A DNA stretch of 52,931 bases from positions 1-52,931 of IMG/VR virus record IMGVR_UViG_3300025849_000049; one strand, 5' to 3'. Within the stretch, counting starts at the first letter, position 1; the number at the start of each line of letters is the position of its first letter. Origin of the DNA: a virus (Duplodnaviria; Caudoviricetes). The notes beneath the pieces are model-generated. The model did not search any database, had not been told where the DNA came from, and saw nothing but the letters and a program-made list of their open reading frames with translations. Shown in pieces: positions 2,324 to 49,465 of this stretch. Position numbers and translations under genes: made by a program.

Positions 2324-2623
2324 ATGGTTAAGCCTACTAAACCTTCAAAAAAACCTCTTTCATCAAAAAAGACTAAGGGAAGAAAAAGAACTACGGGTGA
2401 AAAAGTAAGTGACTTTATTGCCGATTCAACTATTCCTTTAGCATATACTATTGCCGCAGGAATGGACGACCCTAAACAAAAAGTAATAGATGTATATAAA
2501 AGAGGTAAGGAAGTTGCTGCCGATAGAAGAAAAAAACTTGACAAAGAAAGAGGAACTGTTTCAAGAAAGACTGGCGGCAGTGTAGCTAAGAAAAAACAAT
2601 CAGGACACAACAGACTTTATTAA
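2324..2623 (+). CDS. Small basic protein ending in SGHNRLY
   Basis: AAGGAG SD; Lys/Arg-rich; C-terminus shared with 11100 and 11912 ORFs. Confidence 0.8.
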   Translation: MVKPTKPSKKPLSSKKTKGRKRTTGEKVSDFIADSTIPLAYTIAAGMDDPKQKVIDVYKRGKEVAADRRKKLDKERGTVSRKTGGSVAKKKQSGHNRLY

Positions 2624-2640
2624 ATAGGAAACAAAAGTAA

Positions 2641-5151
2641 ATGGCAACTGAACGTAATCCATACGACCTATCAGACAAATCAAAAGAATCGGGCATTGAT
2701 ATGAACATCGAAGACATTACGTCTGCCGATGCCATTATCTCTGTTGACCCTGAAACTGGAGAGATTGAGGTAGACCTTGAAGGCACAGCAGGTGAAGTAG
2801 AAATAGAACTTACCCTTGGTGACAACGAGGGTTTCTTTGAAAACCTTGTAGATTTAATTGACGAGGATACGCTATCTGAAATTGGAAACACAGTGATTGA
2901 TAAGTTCAATGCTGACAAAGACTCTCGCTCTGAGTGGGAATCAATGTTCGAGCGTGGCTTTGAACTTCTTGGTCTTAAGCTAGAAGATACAACGGAACCG
3001 TTTGAAGGTGCAGCCACTGCAGTACATCCACTGTTGATTGAGTCTGCTGTCAAGTTCCAAGCCAAAGCCTCTACCGAGTTGTTCCCCGCCAAAGGCCCAG
3101 TTAAGGCTCAGGTGTTAGGTGATGCAACCTTAGAGAAACAACAACAAGCAAACCGTGTACAAAACTTTATGAACTATCAGGTCACAACACAGATGCCTGA
3201 ATACTATGACGAGTTTGAGCGTATGCTTTTCCACTTACCACTTATTGGTTCTGCGTTTAAAAAGGTTTATTATGATGCAAGTCTTGACCGTCCTGTTAGC
3301 GAGTTTGTGCCTATTGACCAGTTTTATGTTTCTTACTATGCGACTGACCTTCGTAGAGCAGACCGTTACACTCATGTTATATATCGCAGTCCTGTGGACT
3401 TGGCTAGGCAGATAGATGCTGGAATGTATGCAGACATAGAGCTGCCTACAGCTGGTATTCCTACACTATCAGGCATGGCCGAAAAGATGGACAGTGTTCT
3501 TGGCTTGTCTCCTGCTTCAGACAATGACCCACAGTATGTATTGCTTGAACAACATTGCTACTTAGAGATTGAAGAAGACAAGATGCACTCAGGTAAAGTT
3601 GCCTGCCCTTACATTGTAACAGTAGAAGAAACCACTGGTGCTGTATTGTCTATCCGCCGCAACTGGGAAGAAGGAGACGATAAGTATGTCAAGAAAATGC
3701 ACTTCACGCACTACAGATATGTTCCTGGTTTTGGTTTTTACGGCTTGGGTCTTATTCACTTCCTTGGTAATCTTACTATGTCTGCTACTGCTGCAATGCG
3801 TAGCCTACTTGATGCTGGCCAGTTCGCTAACTTACCAGGGGGTTTCAAAGCTAAGGGCGTCCGTATGGTCGGAGATAACGACCCTATTGCGCCAGGGGAA
3901 TTTAAAGAAGTAGAAGCAACAGGCATGGACTTGTCTAAGTCTATTATCCCGCTTCCGTTTAAGGAACCATCGCAGACTCTGTTCAACATGCTTACCTTTG
4001 TAACGCAGACAGGTCAGAAGTTTGCTGACAGCACCGAACAAGTAATCGCAGACAGCGGAGGCTATGGTCCCGTTGGAACAACCTTGGCATTGTTAGAAGC
4101 TTCAAGTAAGTTCTTCTCTTCAATTCATAAGAGACTACACAAGGCACAGGGAGACGAGTTTAAAATCTTGGCTCGTATTGACTACGAGTATCTGCCGCCT
4201 GAATATCCTTATGACCTTCCTGGAGTTTCCGAAAAGATTCTTAAGAAAGACTTTGATGGCCGTGTAGATATTGTACCAGTGTCTGACCCTAACATTCCTT
4301 CGAATGCTCAGCGCATGATGCTTATTCAAATGGTACAGAATATTGCTCAACAATCAGAGCCAGGTATGTTTGACATGGAAGCTATTAACCGTATGCTTCT
4401 AACAACAGCTAATGTCCCCGACATTGATACACTGATGCCTCGCAAAGACGAGGCACAACCTCAAGACCCAATGACTGATATCTTGGCTGTGTCTCAGAAC
4501 AAACCAATTCAAGCCTTTATAGGTCAGAACCACGATGCACATATTTCGTTCAAGGGAGCTTTCTTACAAGACCCAGGCAATCAACAGAATCCATTCTTTA
4601 AGCAGATGGCTTCAGCCCTACAGGCTAACATTTCTGAGCATATGCTTCTGAAGTATAAAGGACAGATTGATGGCCTGTCTATGCAGGCGGCTCAGAATCC
4701 ACAGATAGCTGCTCAACTTTCTCAGATGCCTAATCCAGAAGAAATGGCAAACGCACAGGCTGCCCAGCAAATCATGCAGACAAACATGCAGATGGCTCAG
4801 GGAGGTGGCATGTCTCCTGAACAACAGATGCTTCAGATTGAAACACAGAAGCTACAAGTTGAACAACAAAAAAATCAAACCCAAGCCGCTAAGGCTCAGG
4901 TGGATGCTTCACTTAAGCAACGTGACCTTGACCTGAAAGAGCAAAAGATTGTTATTGATGCTCAAGAGGCAGGGATGCAGTCTAACATGAAAGCATATCA
5001 AAAGGAAGAAGACCGTAATTCTAAAAGAGCTTTAAAGGCTATGGACGTTCTGGCTGACTTAATTAAAACACAAGAAGCCAACGGCATTAAAGAAGTACAG
5101 CTTACTACTGATATGTTGAAGGCTATTATGAAGAGTGAGCAAGGTAACTAA
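2641..5151 (+). CDS. Portal protein with Gln-rich coiled-coil C-terminus
   Basis: 836 aa after terL; FYGLGLIH-type portal motif; long helical C-terminus like P22-type portal barrels. Confidence 0.9.
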   Translation: MATERNPYDLSDKSKESGIDMNIEDITSADAIISVDPETGEIEVDLEGTAGEVEIELTLGDNEGFFENLVDLIDEDTLSEIGNTVIDKFNADKDSRSEWESMFERGFELLGLKLEDTTEPFEGAATAVHPLLIESAVKFQAKASTELFPAKGPVKAQVLGDATLEKQQQANRVQNFMNYQVTTQMPEYYDEFERMLFHLPLIGSAFKKVYYDASLDRPVSEFVPIDQFYVSYYATDLRRADRYTHVIYRSPVDLARQIDAGMYADIELPTAGIPTLSGMAEKMDSVLGLSPASDNDPQYVLLEQHCYLEIEEDKMHSGKVACPYIVTVEETTGAVLSIRRNWEEGDDKYVKKMHFTHYRYVPGFGFYGLGLIHFLGNLTMSATAAMRSLLDAGQFANLPGGFKAKGVRMVGDNDPIAPGEFKEVEATGMDLSKSIIPLPFKEPSQTLFNMLTFVTQTGQKFADSTEQVIADSGGYGPVGTTLALLEASSKFFSSIHKRLHKAQGDEFKILARIDYEYLPPEYPYDLPGVSEKILKKDFDGRVDIVPVSDPNIPSNAQRMMLIQMVQNIAQQSEPGMFDMEAINRMLLTTANVPDIDTLMPRKDEAQPQDPMTDILAVSQNKPIQAFIGQNHDAHISFKGAFLQDPGNQQNPFFKQMASALQANISEHMLLKYKGQIDGLSMQAAQNPQIAAQLSQMPNPEEMANAQAAQQIMQTNMQMAQGGGMSPEQQMLQIETQKLQVEQQKNQTQAAKAQVDASLKQRDLDLKEQKIVIDAQEAGMQSNMKAYQKEEDRNSKRALKAMDVLADLIKTQEANGIKEVQLTTDMLKAIMKSEQGN

Positions 5152-5153
5152 TT

Positions 5154-5336
5154 TTGTTATACGAAGAATTAATTAAAGAACTTCAAAAAGAAATTGAAGG
5201 ATTGAAAAATTCGCTTGCATATGGGACAGCTTCAGACTATCCTATGTATAAGGAGGTGGTAGGTAATATTGCAGGGATTGAGAAATCAATTGGTATTATT
5301 AAAGACTATCTAACTAAATACATAGAAGAGGACTAG
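5154..5336 (+). CDS. Small hypothetical protein
   Basis: Fills the gap between portal and GroES; TTG start; helical. Confidence 0.7.
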   Translation: MLYEELIKELQKEIEGLKNSLAYGTASDYPMYKEVVGNIAGIEKSIGIIKDYLTKYIEED

Positions 5337-5340
5337 ACTA

Positions 5341-5748
5341 ATGCAAGCAGCATCTAATGCTATTAAAAATGACGAGTGGATTACAAATGACGATGTGCCT
5401 GACCCAACACCATTACCAGAAGTGCCAGGATACACTGTACTTGTCCGCCCTATCTCTGTTAAAGAGAAGACAAAGGGAGGTATTATTCTTCCTGACTCAA
5501 CCAAATCGGATATGGCTTATCTTACAACAGTTGGCCGTGTACTTAAGGTAGGAAGCGCCGCCTATCAAGACAGCAAGTTTGGCGACACTCCTTGGTGTAA
5601 AGAAGGAGACTACGTGTGTTATGGTAAACACGCTGGGAATAAATTTCTATACAAAGGTGTACAGCTGCTTCTTATTTTTGACGACGATGTCAAAATGGTA
5701 GTTGAAAGCCCAAAAGATTTAGACCCTACATTTAACCTATCAAATTAA
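5341..5748 (+). CDS. groES: GroES-like co-chaperonin
   Basis: VLVRP...EKTKGGIILPD mobile-loop motif, GRVLKVG, GDYV. Confidence 0.88.
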   Translation: MQAASNAIKNDEWITNDDVPDPTPLPEVPGYTVLVRPISVKEKTKGGIILPDSTKSDMAYLTTVGRVLKVGSAAYQDSKFGDTPWCKEGDYVCYGKHAGNKFLYKGVQLLLIFDDDVKMVVESPKDLDPTFNLSN

Positions 5749-5763
5749 TTTAGCGTGTTGCTA

Positions 5764-5792
5764 TTGTGACACGGTAGCTTATACTATATAAT
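5764..5792 (+). promoter_or_regulatory. Sigma70-type promoter for the scaffold-capsid operon
   Basis: TTGTGA-N17-TATAAT in an intergenic gap. Confidence 0.6.
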
Positions 5793-5851
5793 ATACTACA
5801 TCAGCGTTATTCGTCTAAGTTCGCTGAGGACGTTAAACAGGAGAAATACAA

Positions 5852-6865
5852 ATGGCAGAGACTGAATGGTCTACTATTACACCTGAACAAGGTGAATCCC
5901 CCGATAAAATTGAAATTGAAATTGAAGGCGCAGAAGAAGAAGTTGTATCTGCTGCACCAGAAGTAGAAGTTGAGAAGCAGGAAGAACCTGCTCCAACTGC
6001 AGAAGTAGAAGCTGAAGAAGCTACCGCCTCCGAAGAAGTGGAAGAGGAAGCACCAGCCAAAGAAGCAGAAACATCAGGCGCACAGAAGCGTATCCGTCAG
6101 CTGGTAAAACAGAAGAAGGAACGTGAAGCTCAGATTGAAGAACTGCTCCAAGCTCAGAAAGACATGCAGGTTAAACTGCAGCAGCGTGAAGAAGAATACG
6201 GTACTCTTCTAAACACAAACGTAGAATCTAATGAGCGTCAAGTTGCCGAAAGAATTGAACTTGCTAAGAGTGCCTATAAAGAAGCACTGGACAGCGGGGA
6301 ATCAGATAGAATTTTACAGGCGCAAGAATCACTTACTAATGCGCAGCAAGACAGCTACAATATTAAAACCTTTAAACAAGAGGCTGAATCTTTTAAGCCT
6401 GTTAACTTTGAGGAACAAGAGCAAGAGCTACCCGTTAATAAGGCTGCTGATAGAAAAGCACAGCATTGGGTAACAGAAAATGACTGGTTTAATAAAGACC
6501 GTGTCTTAACTGCTGCTGCTCTTGAGATTGATGCAGAGGTACAAAGTGAAGGCTTTGACCCTGCTGATGACGATTATTACGAGGAAATTAACCGCCGTAT
6601 GGCAGATACTTTCCCTAACAAATTCGGAACAACTACAGAAGAAGTAGCTGCCGATAAACCACGTACGAAGCCCACGTCAACGGCTTCTCAAGTAGTAGCT
6701 GGAGCCTCGCACACTTCAGCATCCCCGTCTAACAAGAAAGTTAAACTCTCTCAAGAAGACGTACGACTCGCACAAAAGTGGGGAATTACACTTGAACAGT
6801 ATGCCGCCGAAAAGCTGAAAGTAGAATCAGCTGGTGATGGTGAATATACAACAATTAACAGATAG
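5852..6865 (+). CDS. Probable capsid scaffolding protein
   Basis: Acidic N-terminus, coiled coil, C-terminal helix pair; upstream of MCP. Confidence 0.75.
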   Translation: MAETEWSTITPEQGESPDKIEIEIEGAEEEVVSAAPEVEVEKQEEPAPTAEVEAEEATASEEVEEEAPAKEAETSGAQKRIRQLVKQKKEREAQIEELLQAQKDMQVKLQQREEEYGTLLNTNVESNERQVAERIELAKSAYKEALDSGESDRILQAQESLTNAQQDSYNIKTFKQEAESFKPVNFEEQEQELPVNKAADRKAQHWVTENDWFNKDRVLTAAALEIDAEVQSEGFDPADDDYYEEINRRMADTFPNKFGTTTEEVAADKPRTKPTSTASQVVAGASHTSASPSNKKVKLSQEDVRLAQKWGITLEQYAAEKLKVESAGDGEYTTINR

Positions 6866-6887
6866 CTGCGAAAGGATACATATACTT

Positions 6888-7376
6888 ATGGCACGAAATA
6901 CCACACGTGAATCCCAGTCTCGTGAACTGGAAACAAGAGAAACAGAAGACTACGAATATGTCGAACCGAACCTTTTAGATATTCCACAGTTTGTTAACAA
7001 TAGATTTGACGAACAAGGAATGAAACTACGTTGGATACGCATCTCCCTTAAAGGTAAAGACGATTATACAAATGTTGGTAAGCGATTAGCTGAAGGCTGG
7101 GAGTTTGTTTCTCTCGACGAAGTACCTGAACTAGGCCACACCTCTATGGTTAGAGATGAAGGTCGTTACAGCGGTACTGTTTGCCGTGGGGACTTGGCTC
7201 TTGCCAAAATGCCCATCAAACGTGCAGAAGCACGGCAACGTCATTTTGAAGGGGCATCTGCCGAGATGGTGGACGCTGTTAACTCGCAACTTGAAAACGC
7301 AAGTGACAAAAAAATGCCTGTTCGAAACTCTAGTAAAACAAACGTAACCAGAGGACGTACACCCTCTTTTGATTAA
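6888..7376 (+). CDS. Hypothetical head-module protein
   Basis: Start moved to ATG 6888 (AAGGA SD); LRWIR...GWEFV motif. Confidence 0.75.
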   Translation: MARNTTRESQSRELETRETEDYEYVEPNLLDIPQFVNNRFDEQGMKLRWIRISLKGKDDYTNVGKRLAEGWEFVSLDEVPELGHTSMVRDEGRYSGTVCRGDLALAKMPIKRAEARQRHFEGASAEMVDAVNSQLENASDKKMPVRNSSKTNVTRGRTPSFD

Positions 7377-7431
7377 GAACAAGGTGCTACAGAGTCTGGC
7401 TACATGATTCACAACTTAGGAGATTAATAAA

Positions 7432-8022
7432 ATGACTACTAAACTAATTACTGGTATCACTCCTTCCCGTGTTCGTGGTAACTCGCCTCAGAGCAGTGGT
7501 GCAACTTCGTACCCAATCGCTTCTGGTGCTGGTGCAATGTATACAGGTACTCCTGTACGCTTGTCTGGCGGCTCACTAGTTCCACTCGTTACTTCGACTG
7601 AAATGCCTATTGGTACATTCCAAGGCTGCAGTTACGTAGCAGACGGGGAGCAATACTTTAAACCTTACTACTCTGGCGTATCGGCTTCCGATATTGTCGG
7701 TTTGGTAAACGACGACCCAAGTCAAACCTATATCATTAGCTCGGACACAACCGTTGCTGCTGGTATCGTTGGTAAAAACGTAGCAGCTTCGAACATTGCT
7801 GCTGGTTCTGCCTTTACTGGTCGTTCCACAATCACGGCTCTAACCACTGCAGGTAGTGTCGGAACTTCGGCTGCTGGCCTGTTCCGTGTTATCGGCGTTG
7901 TCGATGAGCCAGGTAACGCTGTTGGCGACCCATATACTCGTTTGGAAGTCCAAATGGGTGCTGTTAGCCAACAGAACTTCATTAACGTACTGGTAACAAC
8001 ACCAGTTACGGTAACCAACTAA
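7432..8022 (+). CDS. Probable capsid decoration/minor capsid protein
   Basis: Beta-type, Ser/Thr/Gly/Val-rich; directly upstream of MCP. Confidence 0.6.
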   Translation: MTTKLITGITPSRVRGNSPQSSGATSYPIASGAGAMYTGTPVRLSGGSLVPLVTSTEMPIGTFQGCSYVADGEQYFKPYYSGVSASDIVGLVNDDPSQTYIISSDTTVAAGIVGKNVAASNIAAGSAFTGRSTITALTTAGSVGTSAAGLFRVIGVVDEPGNAVGDPYTRLEVQMGAVSQQNFINVLVTTPVTVTN

Positions 8023-8037
8023 GGGAGATAATTAGAA

Positions 8038-8964
8038 ATGGCTATTAATAGAGGAAGTATTTCCAAAGAGCTGCTCCCAGGTCTGAACGCTGTATTTGGC
8101 GTTGAGTATGGAGAAGTATCCGATGAACACGCACCGTTGTTTGATGTTGAAAATTCAGACCGTGCATTTGAAGAAGAAGTTCTCTTCACAGGCTTCGGCT
8201 CGGCACCTGTAAAAGGTGAAGGCGCTGCTGTATCGTATGACGATGCCCAAGAAAGCTACACTGCTCGTTACACACACGAGACTGTTGCTCTTGGCTTTGC
8301 CATCACAGAAGAAGCAATGGAAGATAACTTGTATGATACGTTTGCTAAACTACGTGCCAAAGGTCTGGCCCGTGCAATGGCAAACACCAAACAAGTAAAA
8401 GCTGCTGATGTATTCAACAACGGCTTTAACGCTGCTTATGCAGGTGGTGACGGGGACGCATTGTTCTCGGCTTCGCACGCAACGATTGGCGATGGCGACC
8501 AAAGCAACTTGCTGGCCGCTGCTGACCTTTCGGAAGCATCGCTTGAGACTGCTTTGATTAGCATCTCGAAAATCAAAGATGACCGTGGTATCCTGATTGG
8601 TGCGCAAGCCGAAAGCCTGCACATTCCTTCGGACCTCGCATTCACTGCAGACCAGATTCTGAACTCTGCTTTGTCCACCACAATCGTTTCCGATTCGGGT
8701 GTAACAAATACGAATGACATCAACAGCATCCGTAACCAAGGACTTGTCCCTGGTGGGTTCTACGTGAACCGTCGCTTCACCGATACGAATGCTTTCTTCA
8801 TCAAGACTGATTGCCCGAATGGTGCGAAAATGTTCGTACGTTCGCCGCTTCAGACTAAGATGGAACCAGACTTCGACACTGGTAACCTTCGCTTTAAAGC
8901 TCGTGAGCGTTATAGCTTTGGTTGGTCAGACTGGAGAGGTTTCTTCGGTAACGCTGGTGCCTAG
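8038..8964 (+). CDS. Major capsid protein (HK97 fold)
   Basis: 308 aa; GFAITEEAMEDNLY and KARERYSFGWSDWRG motifs; followed by a terminator. Confidence 0.9.
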   Translation: MAINRGSISKELLPGLNAVFGVEYGEVSDEHAPLFDVENSDRAFEEEVLFTGFGSAPVKGEGAAVSYDDAQESYTARYTHETVALGFAITEEAMEDNLYDTFAKLRAKGLARAMANTKQVKAADVFNNGFNAAYAGGDGDALFSASHATIGDGDQSNLLAAADLSEASLETALISISKIKDDRGILIGAQAESLHIPSDLAFTADQILNSALSTTIVSDSGVTNTNDINSIRNQGLVPGGFYVNRRFTDTNAFFIKTDCPNGAKMFVRSPLQTKMEPDFDTGNLRFKARERYSFGWSDWRGFFGNAGA

Positions 8965-8994
8965 TCACTAGTCTACTGATAGACTAAAAAATAG

Positions 8995-9028
8995 AAGGGC
9001 GTGGGAGTTGTATCCTGCGCCCTTTTTT
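8995..9028 (+). terminator. Rho-independent terminator after MCP
   Basis: AAGGGCGTGGGA-gttgta-TCCTGCGCCCTT followed by a T run. Confidence 0.8.
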
Positions 9029-9036
9029 AGTATAAT
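9008..9036 (+). promoter_or_regulatory. Sigma70-type promoter overlapping the MCP terminator
   Basis: TTGTAT-N17-TATAAT. Confidence 0.6.
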
Positions 9037-9070
9037 AGGCACATCGAAGTTTATTATACAGGAGCAAATC

Positions 9071-9388
9071 ATGTCGGCAAATCTTAGGGTAGCATATGTT
9101 ACTTGTAATACTACACTGGTTAATACCGCTGTAGACACAGTTAGCGGTGTAGCGCTAAAAGGTACACGCATTAGAGGCGTCCATGCACAGGGTGTAGGTG
9201 AGTTTACTATCACTGGTACATCCGTAGATGCTTTTGGAAACTCAAATGGCGGTATTATTAAATTCACTAATACAACCAGTTCAGATGTAACAGAAGCTTA
9301 CCTTACAGACACAGGCGTCCGTATGGGTGGTACTGTTATTGTGCAATGTCCTACAGCAGGTTCAACGGTAACAATTTATTATGGCTAA
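9071..9388 (+). CDS. Hypothetical virion protein
   Basis: Start moved to ATG 9071 (AGGAG SD); Thr/Val-rich beta type. Confidence 0.7.
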   Translation: MSANLRVAYVTCNTTLVNTAVDTVSGVALKGTRIRGVHAQGVGEFTITGTSVDAFGNSNGGIIKFTNTTSSDVTEAYLTDTGVRMGGTVIVQCPTAGSTVTIYYG

Positions 9389-10037
9389 TTACACATACCT
9401 TGTAAACGATATTATTGAAGCGTCTGAGAATGATGGCACTGAATTTATTGCCTATATTCCTAAGATGGTTAATCGTGTCGAAGATAGAATGATAAAAGCT
9501 CTAGATGACTACGGGCTTGTAACTGTTACGTCAGTTGCCCTTTCTGCAGGTAAAAATACATTTGAACTACCTACAGGAGCAAAGGTTATTAAGAATATTC
9601 ACCTTAAAGACGCAGGCACTAAGATTGCTTTGCTTCAAAGAACAGACGAATTTATTAATGATTACTGGCCTGTAAGCGCCAGCACGGGAACGCCTAAGTA
9701 TTATGCCAGAAAAACCAACAGTAAGATTCTTTTTGCTCCTACTGCAAGCGCTACTTATGGCGGCTCTATTGTATACACAGTTAAGCCGCCTGCTTTAACC
9801 AGCGCTAATCAAAATAACTATTTCTCAGACGAATGCTATGATGCTTTATTTTATGGCTGCATGGTTGAGGCCACAAACTTTATGAAAAACTTTTCTGTTA
9901 CTCCTGTGTATCAAGAACAACATAAAAATGCAATGGACTTACTGAGAAACCAAGCTAGAAGAACACGCCGTGACGATATGGAAGATAACTCTTCCCCAGC
10001 AGGCGGCGACAACACATTAACTCCAGGAGGAAACTAA
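9381..10037 (+). CDS. Putative head-tail adaptor
   Basis: Position and size; GTPKYYA motif parallels GRPTQFA in the 12089 ORF. Confidence 0.55.
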   Translation: MANYTYLVNDIIEASENDGTEFIAYIPKMVNRVEDRMIKALDDYGLVTVTSVALSAGKNTFELPTGAKVIKNIHLKDAGTKIALLQRTDEFINDYWPVSASTGTPKYYARKTNSKILFAPTASATYGGSIVYTVKPPALTSANQNNYFSDECYDALFYGCMVEATNFMKNFSVTPVYQEQHKNAMDLLRNQARRTRRDDMEDNSSPAGGDNTLTPGGN

Positions 10038-10039
10038 AA

Positions 10040-10846
10040 ATGGCACCTACAGGTAATAAAATTAAAAAAATTGAGAAAAAACTAAAAGCTATTTATAAGG
10101 AGCTTAGTACTCCAGCTACAAAAGGACAGCGTCGAGGAACAACGCCAAGTAAAACACCTTTAAGTACTGCTTTTACAGGAAGCGGTAAGAACAGAAAGAA
10201 TCTTCAAGCTGAGTTTGATAAACTTTCTGCTCAACTTAAAAAAGAAAAAGCTTCTTTTGGTAAAGACGCTAAAGTACAAAAGGCTTCGGACTCAGTGGCT
10301 GTTCCTAAAAGACGTTCTCCTACTGATATTATGCGCCAGACAGGAAGGCGCAAAGAAGTTCTTGCTGGCCCTAAAGTAAAGCCTACTGCTAAAAAGCCTG
10401 CTGCTGCTAAAAAGCCTGCTGCTGCTAAGAAGCCATCAGGCAACGGTTTTGCACAAGCCTTTAAAGAAGCACGTGCTAAGTTTGATGCTGGCACAGGTAA
10501 CACTACCTTTAAATTTAATGGCTCTTCTTACTCCGTTGCTAAACCAGCAGAGCTTAAAAAAGCTGGCGGTACATATGGTAAAAAACTTAATGATATTCTT
10601 AAGTCTAAACAACGTAGAAGCGAGACAGATAAACAGGTAACTAACAAGCCAAAATCTAAATCTAAGTTTGCTGGAATGCCTAACGAAAAAATGCTTAACA
10701 GACTCGAAAGAGAAAAAACTGCCAAGAAGTCTTACGGTGGCGGCATGGATAAGAAAACTGTTAAGCGTGGCAAGGGCAGCAGTATAGCTGGTAAACCTAA
10801 AGGTGTAGGCTGTGCAACCCGTGGATATGGAAAGGCAATGAAGTAA
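10040..10846 (+). CDS. Very basic protein with histone-H1-like AKKPAA repeats
   Basis: Lys/Ala-rich 268 aa; ends GVGCATRGYGKAMK. Confidence 0.75.
   Translation: MAPTGNKIKKIEKKLKAIYKELSTPATKGQRRGTTPSKTPLSTAFTGSGKNRKNLQAEFDKLSAQLKKEKASFGKDAKVQKASDSVAVPKRRSPTDIMRQTGRRKEVLAGPKVKPTAKKPAAAKKPAAAKKPSGNGFAQAFKEARAKFDAGTGNTTFKFNGSSYSVAKPAELKKAGGTYGKKLNDILKSKQRRSETDKQVTNKPKSKSKFAGMPNEKMLNRLEREKTAKKSYGGGMDKKTVKRGKGSSIAGKPKGVGCATRGYGKAMK
10388..10434 (+). repeat. 18-bp tandem repeat, about 2.6 copies (AKKPAA)
   Basis: gctaaaaagcctgctgct twice, then gctaagaagcc. Confidence 0.9.
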
Positions 10847-11100
10847 TGAAAAAAGTACCAAAGAATAATAAGGGTCTTTCCAAGCTTCCTACTGCTGTTC
10901 GTAATAGTATGGGATACTTTCAAGATGGTGGGCCTGTAACGGAAACTATTGGTGCTAGTTCATCAGGAGGAACCCGTGGTACAAAAGAACAAGGTATGAG
11001 AGCTTACGACTACCAACAAGAAATTAAAAAAGAACACGAAGAGCGTATGAAATATATTGAAGAACAGCTTTCAGATAACCGTGGTGGTAAAAGAAAGTAA
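10846..11100 (+). CDS. Small hypothetical protein with YFQDGGPV motif
   Basis: TAATG overlaps with both neighbours. Confidence 0.75.
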   Translation: MKKVPKNNKGLSKLPTAVRNSMGYFQDGGPVTETIGASSSGGTRGTKEQGMRAYDYQQEIKKEHEERMKYIEEQLSDNRGGKRK

Positions 11101-11549
11101 TGTCTGATGCTAAGTACACAAAGCCAGAACTCCGCAAACGAATTGTTGCTCGCATTAAAGCGGGTAGCAAGGGCGGGGCAGCAGGTCAGTGGTCGGCACG
11201 TAAAGCTCAGTTAGCTGCAGCTGCTTATAAGAAAGCAGGTGGTGGCTACAAGGGCGGTAAAGGAAAGAAACAAAAGTCATTAAGCAAATGGACAAAAGAA
11301 GAGTGGGGCACCGAGAGTGGTAAGCCAAGTACGCAGGGGGCGAAGGCCACAGGTGAAAGGTACTTACCAAAAAAGGCGAGGGCTAAACTCACAAAAGCAG
11401 AGTATGCGAAGACTACGGCAGCTAAAAGAAAAGGACGAGCAGAAGGAAAACAGTTCGTTAAGCAGCCTAAAGCTATAGCTAAGAAAACAGCTAAAGTAAG
11501 AAACGCTGCAAAAGGTGGTTCCATCTCAGGACATAATAGGTTATACTAA
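11100..11549 (+). CDS. Basic protein ending in SGHNRLY
   Basis: YTKP...GQWSARKAQ and GERYLP motifs; Lys/Ala/Gly-rich. Confidence 0.8.
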   Translation: MSDAKYTKPELRKRIVARIKAGSKGGAAGQWSARKAQLAAAAYKKAGGGYKGGKGKKQKSLSKWTKEEWGTESGKPSTQGAKATGERYLPKKARAKLTKAEYAKTTAAKRKGRAEGKQFVKQPKAIAKKTAKVRNAAKGGSISGHNRLY

Positions 11550-11552
11550 GAC

Positions 11553-11909
11553 ATGGCATTAACAGATTCAGAAAAAAATAAATTAAAGAAACTTGGCCTC
11601 AAGGGTTTAAACAAACCTAAGATGACGCCAAGCCATCCAAGCAAAAAGGCTGTAGTAGCCGTAAGGGGAGACAATGGAAAACTTAAAACAATTCGTTTCG
11701 GCGCTCAAGGAATGGGCCACAACTACAGCAAAGAAGCTCGTTCAAACTTTAAAGCAAGGCATGGAAAGAACATTGCTAGAGGCAAGACTTCAGCTGCTTA
11801 CTGGGCTGACAAAGTCTTTTGGGGTGGTAAAGGTAAAAGTACTAAGCGTCCTCCTTCGAGTCAAAAACAGACTTTCGGTCTTGGTGGCAAGAACAGAAAG
11901 AAAACTTAA
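11553..11909 (+). CDS. Basic hypothetical protein
   Basis: IRFGAQG...FKARH...SAAYWA motif. Confidence 0.75.
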   Translation: MALTDSEKNKLKKLGLKGLNKPKMTPSHPSKKAVVAVRGDNGKLKTIRFGAQGMGHNYSKEARSNFKARHGKNIARGKTSAAYWADKVFWGGKGKSTKRPPSSQKQTFGLGGKNRKKT

Positions 11910-11911
11910 GG

Positions 11912-12076
11912 ATGGCGATAAGTAGGTCTGCGGTCAGCCAACAGGTAAGCAAGCCTGGAAGAAAGGTAGGTGGTCGCAAAAGAAACTCTACTGGTTCTGC
12001 TAGTCCAAGAGGCACAGACCAGACAGCTGGCTTAAAGGCTGACCGCAAACAATCTGGTCATAACAGACTATACTAA
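11912..12076 (+). CDS. Unannotated 54-aa basic protein ending in SGHNRLY
   Basis: Hand translation MAISRSAVSQQVSKPGRKVGGRKRNSTGSASPRGTDQTAGLKADRKQSGHNRLY; fills the gap exactly. Confidence 0.85.
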   Translation: MAISRSAVSQQVSKPGRKVGGRKRNSTGSASPRGTDQTAGLKADRKQSGHNRLY

Positions 12077-12088
12077 AGGAGAACATGA

Positions 12089-12754
12089 ATGGCAACGTCA
12101 GGTACATATACCTTTTCAATGGATATTGACGAAGTAATTGAAGAAGCACTGGAAATGATTGGAGGTGAGGCTACGCTTGGTAACGAGCCTAAGTCTGCTC
12201 GTCGTTCTATTAACCTGCTTCTACAAGACTGGCAGAACCGTGGCATTCAGTTGTGGACAATTGGAACCACTGCTGTTACGGTTACAACCAGTGTTACCTC
12301 CTATGTCTTGGGAGAAGAGAACATCGACGTTCTGGAAGCTGTGGTTAACCGTGACAACATCGACCTGCAGCTAGAACGCATCAGCATGGAAGAGTACCTT
12401 AAAGTCCCTCGTAAGGGGCAGACAGGGCGTCCTACACAGTTTGCTGTACGTAGAGAGCGGGACCAGTCTCGTGTCTTCCTATGGCCTGTACCAGAGAATA
12501 GCACAGATGCAATTAAGTTTGAAACTGTAAAGTATTTCCAAGATGTATCCAAGTCTTCTCAGACTGCTGACATCTCTCGTAGGTTCTATCCTTGCTTAAC
12601 TGCAGGCACTGCCTACTTCATGTCAATGAAACGTCCAGGTGTAGATGCAGGCCGCATCCAGATGATTAAGGGTGAATATGAAGACAGATTACTAAGAGCG
12701 CAGGAAGAGGATAAAGAGCGTGCCAGCATGTACATTCTCCCTCGTCTGAGGTAG
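12089..12754 (+). CDS. Putative head-tail adaptor/tail accessory protein
   Basis: MATSGT...EVIEEALEMIG...INLLLQDWQNRG pattern like P22 gp4-type adaptors. Confidence 0.65.
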   Translation: MATSGTYTFSMDIDEVIEEALEMIGGEATLGNEPKSARRSINLLLQDWQNRGIQLWTIGTTAVTVTTSVTSYVLGEENIDVLEAVVNRDNIDLQLERISMEEYLKVPRKGQTGRPTQFAVRRERDQSRVFLWPVPENSTDAIKFETVKYFQDVSKSSQTADISRRFYPCLTAGTAYFMSMKRPGVDAGRIQMIKGEYEDRLLRAQEEDKERASMYILPRLR

Positions 12755-28500: not shown

Positions 28501-29240
28501 CACAAGCTGTAAGCCCTTTTATTGCTCCTTCAATGTTAACAGAAGGCTTGATAAAGGGCTATGGTGTTGCTACTTCATCTGGTGATACGGCGCTAGATAA
28601 AACATTAGACGCTACTAAAGCTGTTGTAGGTGTGTTTACTCCTGGTTTTGGTGATTTTATTTACAAAAACAGGCAGTATGAAAAGAGTAAAGAAAAGTGG
28701 GATGAAGTTGGTGAGCTACCTAGAAAGAAAAGCGGGGCCACTTGGGCTGGTGGTGAAGTAGACATGCCTGCATTCTTTGGATTAAAGCGCTCACGTCAAG
28801 ATTTGTCTAGTGGTCAATCATGGGCATTAAAGGATGGTCTTAAAAACGCAGCACAAGCTGGTAATGATTTAACTAGAGAGCTTAATACTAACTTTAATCT
28901 TACAGATGATGACAAACAAGACGTCTTAGATAAGTTTGTCAAAGCTCAAGATAAAAAAGTTGGTGCTTACAAAGAACTACACTCATTGGTTGATTCCTAT
29001 AAAACTCTTTACGGCGATAATTTTGTAGATGCTTTTTATAGTGAAGTTAAAAATCTAAAGGGTGTAGATAAAAAGAATATTGATAATGTTATTAATAATG
29101 TTTACGAACCTTTTGTATTTAAACCAAGTAATAAGGTGTTGCAAGAGACCAGACCTGGTATTCCATATGCAGAATTTGTAGAGGTTAATAGGGCTTTACA
29201 AGGAAACTTAATTGAAGACCCTAAGAAAAAGGATGACTAA
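25599..29240 (+). CDS. Large internal virion/ejection protein
   Basis: 1213 aa, helical, last of the ejection set. Confidence 0.65.
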   Translation: MVLSIRSKTFQDAITDVESKIDSGEITTQQDLRGYLETKEIDYDDFVGTNEEFVSAQQAGEDDFVARTSVPGRVVGRALGDTYEGLKVAGEMIAPEFIEDAFGKAAEAVGEYIPEDIKVAASEMFDPYHGEGTGAGIEEVVGTIGSYIVPGMAGVKILNAAGKGAKAVRAASPGARAVTNKIAKKVGQEGRKRAKKVVGVVTPAVGFAGGATVVEKPEENLVNTMIEQFPESEQYLSRLAIDPNDSEAKQYTQAFINNLGLEAIATPIALGAFVAAKAAAKGTGKVIGKAVPQSIKQNFTANLGTDDITGGLLVERGQATEAAMVRATALADELENAVSKEYKNKATSPELISKMNKALEGDEKSFAGLKPKTQTLLKEMRTSLDEVGADVLKGAKGKFFGSVKANLPGEEKKLGTYVTKSYDFFDDPRYKKDVLKKYSEFRQGRSSAEDAPFGDAIDALKKQYDIDDIEATDYLDKLLGHGVYAKEGADEGLLRDMVGSLVNRSQGSSTAKVGKGRTDVPDEVKNLLGEVSDPFRNYVKTFTNLAKINAESKFMDEIADHLVKNGIAKTEKPVDGLNYYGLKDLAKDRLSGIVGQGTAREGITNPLENLYVTKEYRDALQQGYDAVDISSPAMKTWMKAKGLSQSAKTVYSPVTHGRNVMGNFFFLGANGMLGPKGSLKALKSITSNLRGLKNKELRDKYARYVELGIANSGVNLGVMRNNLRAFDKAPDKWLAKSGRSAKEFTKDSAKGLDRTLKDLYQAEDDLFKIMHFEKSLDLVKKSKKYRDLPIEQQERIAAQRTRDLMPNYNLVPKAIKGLRGSVVSDFVSFPAELIRVSKNLAKYSMDDLATGDAAFMGSAAKRLGGMTAIGLAGDMASDFTKNIHGITAEQEFEMDNVDAPWQARTDKLYLSGIEKDKNGKYGVDVFNLGYIDPFSYVKTFAKAAHQGIAKNEELTETELQKLAFGALTQAVSPFIAPSMLTEGLIKGYGVATSSGDTALDKTLDATKAVVGVFTPGFGDFIYKNRQYEKSKEKWDEVGELPRKKSGATWAGGEVDMPAFFGLKRSRQDLSSGQSWALKDGLKNAAQAGNDLTRELNTNFNLTDDDKQDVLDKFVKAQDKKVGAYKELHSLVDSYKTLYGDNFVDAFYSEVKNLKGVDKKNIDNVINNVYEPFVFKPSNKVLQETRPGIPYAEFVEVNRALQGNLIEDPKKKDD

Positions 29241-29686
29241 TGAAACTAAGTAGAAACTTTTCACTAGGTGAGTTGACCAAGAGTCAAACAGCTTTGCGTA
29301 TGGGTATTGATAATAATCCTACGCCAGAGGACTTGTATAACCTACACCTGTTGTGCGATAATATACTACAGCCAGTGCGTGAGCATTTTGGTAGAGCCGT
29401 AACCATCAGTAGTGGATACAGGTCAGAAGATTTATGTGTTGCCATTGGCAGCAGCAGGAAGAGTCAACATGCCAAGGGACAGGCAGCTGACTTTGAGATT
29501 TTTGGCGTGGACAATAAAGAGGTAGCCGAATGGATTCGGGATGTCTTGGACTTTGACCAGCTGATACTAGAGTTTTACAACGAGAACGACCCGTCTTCAG
29601 GTTGGGTGCATTGTAGTTATGCAGAAGATAACCGTGGGTCTGTCCTTAGATACGACGGCACAAACTATATAGAAGGATTAGAATAA
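29240..29686 (+). CDS. Endolysin, peptidase M15A family
   Basis: SGYRS...SQHAKGQAAD...WVHCS zinc-peptidase motifs. Confidence 0.9.
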   Translation: MKLSRNFSLGELTKSQTALRMGIDNNPTPEDLYNLHLLCDNILQPVREHFGRAVTISSGYRSEDLCVAIGSSRKSQHAKGQAADFEIFGVDNKEVAEWIRDVLDFDQLILEFYNENDPSSGWVHCSYAEDNRGSVLRYDGTNYIEGLE

Positions 29687-37460: not shown

Positions 37461-37678
37461 AATATATAATGCTCCAACTGTGTGTAACCACCTATGTGCT
37501 TACCGTTAACTTTAATCTGCGGTACTGTTTTCTCGTCAGGGAACAGCTCTTTAAATTCTTTAGCCGTAACCTCTGTGCCGATGCCGTAGTAACCGTAGGG
37601 AATCTTTCGAACCCTACAGAATACTACGGCGTCTCTACAATACTTGCAGCCTTTCTGCCCGTATATCTCTACCCTCAT
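37457..37678 (-). CDS. grx: Glutaredoxin
   Basis: CKYC active site, TVPQI, IGGY. Confidence 0.9.
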   Translation of the reverse strand: MRVEIYGQKGCKYCRDAVVFCRVRKIPYGYYGIGTEVTAKEFKELFPDEKTVPQIKVNGKHIGGYTQLEHYIL

Positions 37679-49045: not shown

Positions 49046-49465
49046 TTAATCCCACCTATAAAAAATGTGGTTGTCAATCGTTGCTACCTTGGTAAAGGTA
49101 TGCGCCCAGCTTGGCATCACGTAGTCTGCATGATAGTGTGTTGCTCCGTCAGCGAATGAATGTGTCCATCCGTTGAGAACCATTGCGGCAATCTCTTGTG
49201 AGCGGATGAACGCTTTTTCATTGCGTGGTTCGTCAGAGATGCCATCACAATACCAACTGAACTGGCACCTGTTCTTGGCTGGCTTGCTCTCCCAGTGTAT
49301 GCCCTGTGTAATCACAGCACACACATCGTCAGGGAAGCGGTCATCTTCTACACGATTAAGCACAACCTGTGCCACAGCAAGTTGCCCCATTGTGCTTTCG
49401 TTTCGTGCTTCGTGATAGACATTCATTGCCATACACATAAGCGGTGTTGCTAATAGCTCAATCAT
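49046..49465 (-). CDS. SleB-like cell wall hydrolase (Hydrolase_2)
   Basis: NVYHEARNE...AVAQVVLNRV...CQFSW...GATHYHA...HIFY. Confidence 0.9.
   Translation of the reverse strand: MIELLATPLMCMAMNVYHEARNESTMGQLAVAQVVLNRVEDDRFPDDVCAVITQGIHWESKPAKNRCQFSWYCDGISDEPRNEKAFIRSQEIAAMVLNGWTHSFADGATHYHADYVMPSWAHTFTKVATIDNHIFYRWD

What the first reader, a model, noticed from the sequence alone, without database searches (positions are those of the whole stretch)
2324..12076. Identical C-terminal peptide SGHNRLY on three unrelated basic proteins: candidate capsid cargo-loading tag
Seen: ORFs 2324-2623, 11100-11549 and the unannotated 11912-12076 all end in SGHNRLY-stop (two in KQSGHNRLY) and share no other evident similarity. 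The codons differ (tca gga cac aac aga ctt tat; tca gga cat aat agg tta tac; tct ggt cat aac aga cta tac), so the constraint is on the peptide, not a DNA repeat. One copy is about 9 kb from the others. Known analogues are the T4 internal-protein capsid targeting sequence and encapsulin cargo-loading peptides. Inference: a portable C-terminal address that docks basic proteins on the scaffold, portal or capsid interior. I know of no description of this motif.
Basis: partly seen in the sequence, partly recalled or inferred. Interest (0 to 1): 0.9.

Follow-up and report, generated by a model that had tools for sequence, protein, structure and literature searches.

The report
Shared C-terminal tag on phage polycations
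A group of uncultured marine short-tailed phages ends many unrelated small, very basic late proteins in the same peptide (…His-Asn-Arg-Leu-Tyr), which behaves like a swappable address label whose reader is still unknown.

Summary
Three + strand ORFs (2324-2623, 11100-11549, 11912-12076) end in SGHNRLY-TAA. These are the only GHNRLY in six frames, and the codons differ.

It is not chance and not paralogy.
- A degenerate scan of IMG/VR found 97 loci holding 136 tagged ORFs in 8 body families. Profile comparison aligns these families only at the tail.
- 96 of the 97 loci belong to the window's own phage lineage, with MCP at least 81% identical where present.
- All 6 near-complete genomes of the lineage carry 1-4 NR[LI]Y-stop proteins. 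0 of 5 sister genomes do.
- The same bodies occur with and without the tail.
- The invariant core is HNR[LI]Y-COOH, usually preceded by GG-x-[VIL] and a basic spacer.

Tagged genes sit in three late slots: terL|portal, between two adaptor genes, and after the endolysin. I read this as a portable docking tag for polycationic, probably DNA-binding, proteins, most plausibly for virion loading. No receptor was found, and capsid docking is untested.

This scan has noted similar shared tails on basic phage proteins in other DNA (e.g. e1-5927146, e1-6126108), but not this peptide. I found no paper holding the string GHNRLY.

The parts
2324..2623 (+). Tagged protein 1 (99 aa, 28% K+R), in the terL|portal slot. 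GGSV at 2573-2584; SGHNRLY at 2600-2620; TAA at 2621-2623.
   Evidence: Its body family is small: P0004, an 82-aa protein 80% identical over the queried residues 60-99, and one identical copy in L045.
11100..11549 (+). Tagged protein 2 (149 aa). It is a fusion of two modules, phrog_17747 (N half) and phrog_14910 (C half), with a weak DUF5872 match. The appended tail is AAKGGSI-SGHNRLY: GGSI at 11514-11525, tag at 11526-11546.
   Evidence: In the model the body is helical and residues 136-149 have pLDDT under 50. Untagged homologues end at ...KKTAKYRK.
11912..12076 (+). Tagged protein 3 (54 aa); tag at 12053-12073. Its N-terminus, MAISRSAVSQQVS, resembles the N-terminus of the major capsid protein.
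   Evidence: It has 42 tagged homologues in IMG/VR. Two homologues (L019, L085) end in a different tail.
10040..11100 (+). Two untagged members of the same block of small basic proteins (10040-10846 and 10846-11100). The first ends in KGVGCATRGYGKAMK, a version of the second, more widespread C-terminal tail.
11553..11909 (+). An untagged basic protein lying between tagged proteins 2 and 3. It matches phrog_7595, and its core domain is also found inside a 1393-aa portal-like protein of phage CL131. It is present in 5 of 5 other tag-bearing genomes and 0 of 5 sister genomes.
9381..10037 (+). First SU10-adaptor-like gene; upstream border of the basic block.
   Evidence: PF24175, E 6.8e-21.
12089..12754 (+). 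Second SU10-adaptor-like gene; downstream border of the basic block.
   Evidence: PF24175, E 9.5e-9. Its homologues are annotated as adaptor in DSL-LC04 and CRP-901.
8038..8964 (+). Major capsid protein (HK97-fold family). Its identity defines the tag-bearing lineage.
5852..6865 (+). Probable scaffold: very acidic N-terminal third, with a C-terminal ...LAQKWGITLEQYA... motif. A candidate partner that I did not test.
   Evidence: phrog_28737. The scaffold role is inferred from gene position and composition.
2641..5151 (+). Portal protein (836 aa). A candidate partner that I did not test.
   Evidence: The homologue is annotated as portal in DSL-LC04 and as head-to-tail connecting protein in CRP-901.

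Best explanation
SGHNRLY is the visible end of a portable, strongly selected C-terminal tag. The tag has three pieces: GG-x-[V/I/L], then a basic spacer of 0 to about 12 residues, then [S/G/A][G/T/P]-H-N-R-[L/I]-Y-COOH. One lineage of uncultured marine short-tailed phages attaches it to a changing set of small, disordered or helical, polycationic late proteins. Some of these carry DNA-binding-type motifs. Because the peptide occurs only at the free C-terminus and its core is invariant on unrelated bodies, it is most likely read by one common protein partner with a C-terminal-peptide pocket. Because the genes sit in the late arm, next to the portal, adaptor and ejection-protein genes, the most likely job is to bring these polycations to the assembling particle (prohead interior or neck), so that they end up with the packaged DNA. 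Shown: identity, portability, peptide-level selection, C-terminal exclusivity, lineage restriction and gene positions. Inferred: that there is a single reader, that it is a virion component, and that the proteins are packaged. My odds are about 0.8 for a selected portable recognition peptide with one common reader, and about 0.4 for a reader that is a prohead or virion component with loading as the function.
For: - Three identical C-terminal heptapeptides with different codons.
- IMG/VR scan: 97 loci and 136 tagged ORFs, falling into 8 real body families plus one 9-aa chance ORF.
- hhalign of bodies without tails: best probability 8.7%. With tails, probabilities are 36-96% and the aligned columns lie at the C-terminal end of every family pair; 3 pairs also span earlier, gapped columns of family 2.
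- Coding strings: 45 distinct 30-nt strings. Tag pS is 0.53 and 0.32 with pN 0 in two families and 0 in a third; this sample was chosen by pattern, so pN 0 is partly circular.
- Body-based, pattern-free retrieval shows only these tail variants: S/G-G/T-HNRLY, APHNR[LI]Y, [TR]PNRLY and KNRLY.
- Same body with or without the tag. P0002 C-half: 46 tagged against 31 untagged ORFs. P0003 body: 41 against 16 (alignments).
- C-terminal exclusivity: NR[LI]Y followed by a stop occurs 11 times in five tag-bearing genomes and 0 times in five sister genomes. Internal NR[LI]Y in any frame occurs 11 and 9 times.
- Lineage restriction:
  - 95 of 97 loci have tblastn hits to window late proteins, and a 96th shares the gene order.
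  - In an MCP-retrieved sample, 12 of 22 loci with MCP at least 80% identical have an NRLY-stop ORF, against 0 of 58 loci with MCP at most 78%.
  - 6 of 6 near-complete lineage genomes have 1-4 tagged genes, against 0 of 5 sister genomes.
- Cellular genomes: 18 pattern hits, of which 7 read SGHNRLY-stop. Six of those are ORFs of at most 21 aa. One is a P0003-family gene on a 1.9-kb contig.
- Positions: terL|portal, between the two SU10-adaptor-like genes, and after the large ejection-type protein and endolysin.
- The tail of P0002 is predicted to be disordered.
- Context pointing to the head:
  - The core domain of neighbour g11553 lies inside a 1393-aa portal-like protein of phage CL131 and matches phrog_220, 'minor head protein and DNA pilot'.
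  - LysM domains occur on block proteins of relatives.
  - One tagged protein has a sub-threshold HeH/SAP motif (26.2 bits against a cut-off of 28.9).
Against: - No receptor was identified, and there are no proteomic data for any member; none is cultured as far as my searches show.
- In 9 loci the tagged gene lies directly after a holin and a lysozyme, which is a lysis context rather than a head context.
- The DUF5872-like body of P0002 occurs in HTVC010P-type and HMO-2011-type phages away from head genes. Its Atlas look-alikes are clusters of Preplasmiviricota and Nucleocytoviricota. The bodies are therefore not capsid-lineage-specific cargo.
- Sister phages with MCP 71-77% identical lack the tag entirely and use another tail, so a conserved capsid pocket is not required by the data.
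- Gene-content comparison found no accessory gene that could serve as a dedicated reader, other than the small basic g11553.
- No protease, PDZ, TPR or similar peptide-binding family was found by Pfam in the 53 window ORFs scanned.
Confidence: 0.4

Rival explanations
1. Host-factor handle. The basic-hydrophobic C-terminus (…H-N-R-L-Y-COOH) is read by a host machine, for example as a ClpX-type C-terminal degron that keeps toxic DNA-binding polycations short-lived, or as a chaperone handle.
For: The tag is strictly C-terminal. Its restriction to one lineage could reflect one host. The bodies are not tied to a capsid type. No phage-encoded reader emerged from the gene-content comparison. The resemblance to ClpX C-motif 2 (the MuA end) is recalled from memory, not tested.
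Against: No cellular protein ending in SGHNRLY was found in 185,579 species genomes, although the pattern was limited to TCN Ser codons and the TAA stop. The host is unknown. Degrons tolerate variation, yet here 5 residues are invariant on at least 8 families.
Confidence: 0.15
2. Address-and-release signal. HNRLY docks the protein, and the upstream GG-x-[VIL] is a cleavage site, as with adenovirus-type xGG|x processing of basic core proteins. The tail would be clipped after loading or act as a free peptide.
For: GG-x-[VIL] lies 0-12 residues before the tag in 13 of the 15 tagged proteins of six genomes and in most of the IMG/VR families. The same scan noted a recurring GG motif in this genome (e1-6286224) and GG-plus-basic-tail tags in other viruses (e1-5312969). 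These are leads only.
Against: No protease family was found by Pfam in the 53 window ORFs scanned. The P0003 family lacks a GG near the tag. The model of the conserved unknown g6888 matches no protease: best Foldseek E-value 0.49, best VIA Z 4.1 with rmsd 3.5 over 53 aligned residues.
Confidence: 0.1
3. Nucleic-acid anchor. The tail is itself part of a DNA- or RNA-binding surface (basic spacer plus a stacking Tyr), and no protein reader exists.
For: All carriers are polycationic, 21-34% K+R. One carries a sub-threshold HeH/SAP motif. The tail is predicted to be disordered.
Against: Backbone binding does not explain an invariant H-N-R-L-Y, nor the absolute need for the free C-terminus. It also does not explain why sister phages with the same kinds of polycation use a quite different tail.
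Confidence: 0.1
4. Envelope or lysis function. The tagged polycations act at the cell envelope, like cationic membrane-disrupting lysis peptides or ejected wall-binding proteins, and the tag targets an envelope component.
For: The slot after holin and lysozyme occurs in 9 loci. LysM domains occur on neighbouring block proteins of relatives. In HTVC023P and HTVC034P the related basic proteins follow the M15 endolysin gene.
Against: Most tagged genes (about 126 of 136) lie in the terL|portal or adaptor slots. No signal peptides or transmembrane segments are evident in the three window proteins (read).
Confidence: 0.07
5. No function of its own. The tail is a remnant spread by recombination among neighbouring genes, or the proteins are ordinary paralogues.
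For: The genes are clustered, so illegitimate recombination is easy. The bodies are low-complexity.
Against: The bodies are unrelated by profile comparison. Synonymous sites are saturated while the peptide is invariant. The copy at 2324 lies 9 kb from the others. Every near-complete lineage genome keeps at least one copy.
Confidence: 0.03

Closest known systems
Encapsulin cargo-loading peptides (C-terminal targeting peptides of cargo enzymes of HK97-fold nanocompartments)
   Same: A short conserved peptide sits at the extreme C-terminus of otherwise unrelated proteins, behind a flexible linker, and the genes lie next to an HK97-fold shell gene. Heterologous proteins fused to a CLP are encapsulated (abstracts seen in the listing: PMC11866011, PMC8346489).
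   Different: The sequence is unrelated: basic and aromatic HNRLY against the Gly/Ser/Leu/Ile-rich CLP consensus, which I recall from memory. The carriers are polycations rather than enzymes. The shell here is a DNA-filled phage head with a separate scaffold. Binding to the shell is not shown.
Phage T4 capsid targeting sequence (CTS) of internal proteins IPI-III and Alt
   Same: A diverse, fast-evolving set of small basic internal proteins shares only a short conserved targeting sequence, which loads them into the scaffolding core, and it works on foreign proteins (passages read in PMC3012670).
   Different: From memory, the T4 CTS is N-terminal and is removed by the prohead protease gp21. Here the tag is C-terminal, and no protease was found by Pfam.
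C-terminal capsid-docking tails of the HK97 prohead protease, P22 scaffolding protein, and 80alpha scaffold with SaPI CpmB (all recalled, no call)
   Same: The C-terminal end of an internal assembly protein binds the inner face or N-arm of the HK97-fold coat protein.
   Different: Those are single dedicated assembly proteins with helical or strand motifs. They are not a heptapeptide shared by many swappable polycations.
The second tail of the same phage group: GG-x-[VI]…[KR]G.G.A.[RK]G[FY]G[KN]A.K-COOH (window 10040-10846; HTVC023P gp32 and gp51; sister-clade contigs)
   Same: It sits on the same kinds of carriers in the same gene slots, with the same upstream GG-x-[VI], and it coexists with the NRLY tag in the window and in L105. 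This scan noted such tails in other genomes (e1-5927146, e1-6236876, e1-6263959).
   Different: The terminal sequence is different and the distribution is much wider. The NRLY tag is a derived addition restricted to one sub-lineage.
Adenovirus core-protein precursors and pVIc (recalled)
   Same: Basic DNA-condensing proteins with xGG|x sites, and a short basic C-terminal peptide ending in a hydrophobic or aromatic residue that is read by a viral protein.
   Different: That system needs a clan CE protease, and none was detected here. It belongs to a different virus realm.

Membership tests
Encapsulin-type C-terminal cargo-loading peptide | A short conserved peptide at the extreme C-terminus of otherwise unrelated proteins | tested here: met
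   8 body families, unrelated by hhalign, share the tail. The motif occurs only before stops.
Encapsulin-type C-terminal cargo-loading peptide | A flexible linker before the peptide | tested here: met
   P0002 residues 136-149 have pLDDT under 50. The spacers are Gly/Lys-rich and vary from 0 to about 12 residues.
Encapsulin-type C-terminal cargo-loading peptide | Cargo genes adjacent to the HK97-fold shell gene | tested here: inconclusive
   Most tagged genes lie 2-4 kb downstream of the MCP gene or between terL and portal, but 9 loci place one after the endolysin.
Encapsulin-type C-terminal cargo-loading peptide | The peptide binds a pocket on the inner face of the shell protein | not testable with these tools
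   No usable result was obtained (see Tried and rejected). It needs pull-down, co-expression or cryo-EM.
T4-type capsid targeting sequence | An N-terminal leader | tested here: not met
   The shared peptide is at the C-terminus. The N-termini of the three proteins differ.
T4-type capsid targeting sequence | Removal by a phage prohead protease | tested here: inconclusive
   No protease family was found by Pfam in the 53 window ORFs scanned. A protease of unknown fold is not excluded.
T4-type capsid targeting sequence | The carriers are present in the mature head | not testable with these tools
   There is no cultured member and no proteome. Searches found no related cultured phage carrying the tag.
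Adenovirus-like GG|x processing with a C-terminal cofactor peptide | A clan CE cysteine protease encoded by the virus | tested here: inconclusive
   Pfam gave no hit in any scanned ORF. The large unknown proteins were not folded.
Adenovirus-like GG|x processing with a C-terminal cofactor peptide | A GG motif immediately upstream of the basic tail | tested here: met
   GG-x-[VIL] lies 0-12 residues before the tag in 13 of the 15 tagged proteins of six genomes. The P0003-like family is the exception.
Ordinary full-length paralogues | Detectable similarity along the bodies | tested here: not met
   BLASTP clustering at E below 1e-4 separates the bodies. hhalign of bodies gives at most 8.7% probability.
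DNA repeat or recombination box | Conservation at the nucleotide level | tested here: not met
   The three copies are 15-16 of 21 bases alike. There are 45 distinct coding strings, and all synonymous classes are used.

The most novel reading that the evidence does not exclude
These abundant marine podophages run an encapsulin-like, programmable loading code in a DNA-filled tailed-phage head. A five-residue free C-terminus (HNR[L/I]Y-COOH) behind a GG-x-[VIL] hinge or cleavage site would be sufficient to recruit any protein into the prohead or neck. Sub-lineages keep at least two orthogonal codes, HNRLY and RG.G.A.RGFGKA.K. The codes are shuffled among a fast-evolving arsenal of polycationic, DNA-binding proteins that travel with, or ahead of, the genome into the host.
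Probability: 0.25. Interest if true: 0.8.

Novelty: new variant of a known kind. Interest (0 to 1): 0.62.

Why it matters
If the tag is a loading signal, it would be a minimal, C-terminal and apparently protease-independent way to put chosen proteins into a tailed-phage particle. It would resemble encapsulin cargo peptides but act in an infectious, DNA-filled head. That would explain how a very abundant group of marine phages, relatives of the pelagiphage HTVC023P and roseophage CRP-901 types, keeps and exchanges a variable set of small polycations. Those proteins currently make up much of the unannotated 'dark' late gene content. It would also give a simple handle for packaging foreign proteins. 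In either case the invariant free C-terminus makes the question directly testable with a synthetic peptide.

Tried and rejected
- **Cultured phages.** Megablast of 2324-12076 against 50,697 phage records gave no match. tblastn of P0003 against the same records gave no match at E up to 10.
- **Literature.** 'GHNRLY' (any position in a word) occurs in 0 papers. 'DUF5872' occurs in 1 paper (listing only, on an algal virus). I did not search for the wider concept beyond.
- **Word-index protein search.** A search with residues 60-99 of P0001 gave only 2 candidates, so it could not be used as a census of the tag.
- **Complex prediction.** MCP alignment A2 with P0003 alignment A3 gave 'no answer' (score 0.00 and 0.00; the controls were not run). 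This is neither for nor against binding. Portal, scaffold, adaptors, g6888 and oligomeric MCP were not tried because the cap is one job.
The model has pLDDT 75. Foldseek against PDB gave nothing at E of 0.001 or better. VIA wide gave a best Z of 4.1 (rmsd 3.5, 53 aligned residues), i.e. no informative match.
- **P0002 model.** No PDB fold match; the best E-value was 6.3.
- **PDB sequence searches.** MCP and g6888 gave nothing. g7432 gave only weak hits (best E 0.04, fucoxanthin chlorophyll a/c protein 5). The last 29 residues of P0003 gave nothing.
- **Mimicry of a host protein end.** The cellular-genome scan gave chance-level hits only. My idea of a bS21-like '...RLY' end (recalled for E. coli) was not followed. 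PF01165 has no match in the phage, and I did not fetch any host bS21.
- **GroES mobile-loop likeness of GG-x-[VI].** The phage GroES loop reads KGGIILP. I rejected the idea because the tags carry K, S or R where the loop needs a hydrophobic residue (read).
- **Gene-content contrast.** Comparing 5 tag-bearing with 5 sister genomes gave no dedicated reader. Only g11553, the minus-strand ORF 11246-11524 (a shadow lying inside P0002), and a probable shadow ORF at 37469-37813 are 5/5 against 0/5.
- **Pag-Yong1.** The region was fetched and its feature table viewed, but the sequence was not analysed.

Full report
**What is in the window**

The window is a 52,931-bp IMG/VR virus record, estimated 93% complete, with 44% G+C. 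Late genes run on the + strand from 719 to about 32.5 kb:
- large terminase, 719-2260
- portal, 2641-5151
- a Cpn10/GroES homologue, 5341-5748
- an acidic scaffold-like protein, 5852-6865
- two conserved unknowns, 6888-7376 and 7432-8022
- the major capsid protein (MCP), 8038-8964
- two SU10-adaptor-like genes, 9381-10037 and 12089-12754
- a 1160-aa fibre with a Peptidase_S74 end
- large unknown proteins of 618, 687 and 1213 aa
- an M15 endolysin, 29240-29686

The minus arm holds replication and nucleotide-metabolism genes and a glycosylation cluster. The closest cultured relatives by MCP are 47-56% identical: phage DSL-LC04, pelagiphages HTVC023P and HTVC027P, roseophages CRP-901 and CRP-902, and Planktothrix phage Pag-Yong1. 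There is no nucleotide-level relative among 50,697 phage records.

ORFs 2324-2623 (99 aa), 11100-11549 (149 aa) and 11912-12076 (54 aa) end in SGHNRLY-TAA. These are the only GHNRLY in any frame. The three coding strings are 15-16 of 21 bases alike and differ at synonymous positions. No other C-terminal 5-mer or longer is shared among 380 ORFs of at least 50 aa.

**It is not chance, not a DNA repeat and not paralogy**

I scanned IMG/VR with TCN GGN CAY AAY MGN YTN TAY TAA. My own arithmetic from the pattern's degeneracy, with a rough guess at collection size, gives a chance expectation of only a handful of hits. The scan returned 97 loci.

These loci hold 136 ORFs ending in SGHNRLY. Once the last nine residues are removed, the ORFs cluster into eight real families plus one 9-aa chance ORF.

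Profile-profile comparison of the bodies gives at most 8.7% probability for any pair of families. With the tails included, every pair aligns at 36-96% probability and the aligned columns lie at the C-terminal end; in 3 pairs the span also takes in earlier, gapped columns of family 2.

The tag is written in 45 distinct 30-nt strings that use every synonymous codon class. Within two families the seven tag codons have pS of 0.53 and 0.32 with pN of 0 (a third family has tag pS 0), while the bodies have pN/pS of 0.09-0.42. The zero pN is partly built in, because that sample was selected by pattern.

The pattern-free samples below give the fair picture. Retrieval by body or by MCP finds only these variants: [S/G][G/T]HNRLY, APHNR[L/I]Y, [T/R]PNRLY and KNRLY. 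The invariant core is therefore N-R-[L/I]-Y, nearly always H-N-R-[L/I]-Y, at the free C-terminus.

**The tag is portable**

The alignment of the P0002 family shows one common body ending ...KQPKxIAKKTAKYRK. Some members continue with AAKGG[K/S/L]I, then 0-7 residues, then [S/G/A][G/T/P]HNR[L/I]Y. Others stop there.

Over all loci held, 46 ORFs with this body are tagged and 31 are not. For the P0003 body the numbers are 41 and 16. Cultured phages have the same body untagged and split into two genes, for example HTVC034P gp22 and gp21. Two P0003 homologues, in L019 and L085, carry a different end.

In near-complete genomes, further body families carry the tag. One of them has a sub-threshold HeH/SAP-type motif, at 26.2 bits against a cut-off of 28.9.

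**The tag is strictly C-terminal and restricted to one lineage**

*C-terminal exclusivity.* In five other near-complete genomes of the lineage, NR[LI]Y followed by a stop occurs 11 times. In five sister genomes it occurs 0 times. NR[LI]Y inside any reading frame occurs 11 and 9 times respectively.

*Per genome.* The window has 3 tagged proteins, and G001-G005 have 2, 1, 3, 2 and 4. The sister genomes G006, G007, G008, G010 and G011 (MCP 71-77% identical) have none.

*IMG/VR loci.* Of the 97 loci, 95 have tblastn hits to window late proteins, with MCP 81-100% identical where it is on the locus. A 96th locus shares the gene order of the endolysin slot.

*MCP-retrieved sample.* In 80 loci retrieved by MCP alone, an NRLY-stop ORF occurs in 12 of 22 loci with MCP at least 80% identical, and in 0 of 58 with MCP at most 78%.

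*Cellular genomes.* One genome for each of 185,579 species gave 18 pattern hits. Seven read SGHNRLY-stop. Six of these are ORFs of at most 21 aa. One is a P0003-family gene on a 1.9-kb contig binned into a MAG.

**Anatomy and neighbourhood**

In 13 of the 15 tagged proteins of six genomes, the tag follows GG-x-[V/I/L] at a distance of 0-12 mostly basic residues. The P0003-like family is the exception. The AlphaFold model of P0002 has a helical body (block pLDDT 67-89 apart from the linker between its two modules) and a tail, residues 136-149, below 50.

Tagged genes occupy three slots:
- between terL and portal
- in the block of small basic genes between the two adaptor-like genes
- in 9 loci, directly after a holin and a lysozyme and downstream of the 1250-aa ejection-type protein

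The block also holds untagged polycations. g10040 ends in KGVGCATRGYGKAMK. This is a version of a second tail, [KR]G.G.A.[RK]G[FY]G[KN]A.K, which is the common end of the analogous proteins in the sister clade and in HTVC023P gp32 and gp51. It is sometimes found on LysM-domain proteins. The phage group therefore uses at least two C-terminal tails, and the NRLY tail is a derived addition of one sub-lineage.

**What it most likely does**

Three features fit recognition by one protein partner with a pocket for a C-terminal peptide:
- an invariant five-residue free C-terminus
- unrelated, disordered or helical polycations as carriers
- one phage lineage

The late, structural-arm positions point to the assembling particle, and so do two further observations. 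The core domain of the neighbouring g11553 lies inside a 1393-aa portal-like protein of phage CL131 and matches phrog_220, 'minor head protein and DNA pilot'. Relatives have LysM domains in the block.

I therefore favour a docking or loading tag for proteins that end up with the packaged DNA. The steps from 'selected portable peptide' to 'one reader', then 'virion component', then 'packaged' are all inference.

Several things count against a simple capsid reading:
- the endolysin slot
- DUF5872-like bodies in other phage types, with Atlas look-alike clusters among eukaryotic viruses
- the complete absence of the tag from sister phages with a 71-77% identical MCP
- my failure to find any reader: the gene-content contrast singles out only g11553, and Pfam finds no protease or peptide-binding domain in the 53 ORFs scanned

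The rivals are a host-factor handle or degron, an address-and-release signal cleaved at GG, a nucleic-acid anchor, and an envelope or lysis role. A functionless remnant is close to excluded.

**Comparison with what is known**

*Works like.* Encapsulin cargo-loading peptides are short C-terminal peptides that suffice to load foreign proteins into an HK97-fold shell (abstracts in the listing). The T4 capsid targeting sequence is the only conserved part of a diverse set of internal proteins and can load GFP or nuclease (two passages of PMC3012670).

*Not a member of either.* The sequence is unrelated to the encapsulin consensus, which I recall from memory. From memory, the T4 signal is N-terminal and protease-removed.

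*Literature.* I found no paper with the string GHNRLY. The one passage I read of the study of 80 HTVC023P-type genomes lists a 13-gene core that includes GroES, and does not mention tails (PMC9599517; its supplements were closed).

*Earlier notes of this scan.* They describe similar shared tails on basic phage proteins in other genomes (e1-5927146, e1-6126108, e1-6236876, e1-6263959) and GG-plus-basic-tail tags in giant viruses (e1-5312969). I used them as leads only.

**Verdict**

This is a real, selected, portable C-terminal tag on at least eight unrelated polycation families, private to one abundant marine phage lineage. The capsid-cargo reading is plausible but unproven. It is a new variant of the known kind 'short terminal address peptide on swappable viral cargo'.

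Noticed in passing
window 10040-10846 (C-terminus); L002 (HTVC023P gp32, gp51); L105, L107, L137, L150, L155, L178: A second C-terminal tail, roughly GG-x-[VI]…[KR]G.G.A.[RK]G[FY]G[KN]A.K-stop, ends many small basic proteins of the wider phage group. It coexists with the NRLY tag in the window and in L105.
   Followed up: partly
window 11912-11950 versus 8038-8076: The first 13 residues of the 54-aa tagged protein (MAISRSAVSQQVS) resemble the N-terminus of the major capsid protein (MAINRGSISKELL). hhalign gives probability 30% and pairwise E 5e-4. Untagged relatives, including HTVC023P gp50, keep this start. It may mimic the capsid N-arm.
   Followed up: partly
window 9381-10037 and 12089-12754: Two paralogous SU10-adaptor-like genes flank the block of small basic genes. 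Relatives annotate only the second one as adaptor.
   Followed up: partly
window 11553-11909; L233 (Aphanizomenon phage CL131 gp012): The core of this untagged basic protein (residues 22-90) is a widespread marine-phage domain. It also sits inside a 1393-aa portal-like protein. It is the only real gene found in 5 of 5 other tag-bearing genomes and 0 of 5 sister genomes.
   Followed up: partly
window 11100-11549: The 149-aa protein is a fusion of two modules that are separate adjacent genes in many relatives. Its ESM Atlas look-alikes are DUF5872 clusters of Preplasmiviricota, Nucleocytoviricota and Uroviricota.
   Followed up: partly
window 6888-7376: This core gene, conserved between the scaffold and capsid genes (90 homologues in the loci held), has a moderately confident model (pLDDT 75). 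It has no informative match in PDB (best Foldseek E-value 0.49, best VIA Z 4.1).
   Followed up: yes
L030, L034, L058, L083 versus window 29240-29686: Relatives carry holin, a T4-type lysozyme, a tagged 104-106-aa protein and (except L083) a 248-265-aa protein in the place where the window has an M15 peptidase. This is an endolysin swap with a tagged gene in the cassette.
   Followed up: partly
L105:10600-11508, L107:9297-9821: LysM domains (E 1e-15 to 1e-16) occur on block proteins that end in the second tail.
   Followed up: partly
L012:247-787, L214:3178-3627: Tagged proteins built from 4-7 tandem units of KAGGKMKSKGY. The unit looks like a degenerate internal copy of the GG-x-[VIM] part of the tag.
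   Followed up: no
L184 (1.9-kb contig of a Dehalococcoidia MAG): This contig carries a P0003-family tagged gene. It is probably a phage contig binned into a MAG rather than a host clue.
   Followed up: no
L104 (DSL-LC04, two genes after the portal): An 83-aa and a 114-aa basic protein end in GG[SL]V…KKKTKIY and …KKTRIC. HTVC023P gp30 (terL|portal slot) ends in …GGGMARMKPTKMY. These are looser 'GG…basic-hydrophobic-Tyr/Cys' ends in distant relatives.
   Followed up: no
window 49046-49465 (-): A second cell-wall hydrolase (Hydrolase_2, E 5e-26) lies among the early genes of the minus arm, besides the late M15 endolysin.
   Followed up: no
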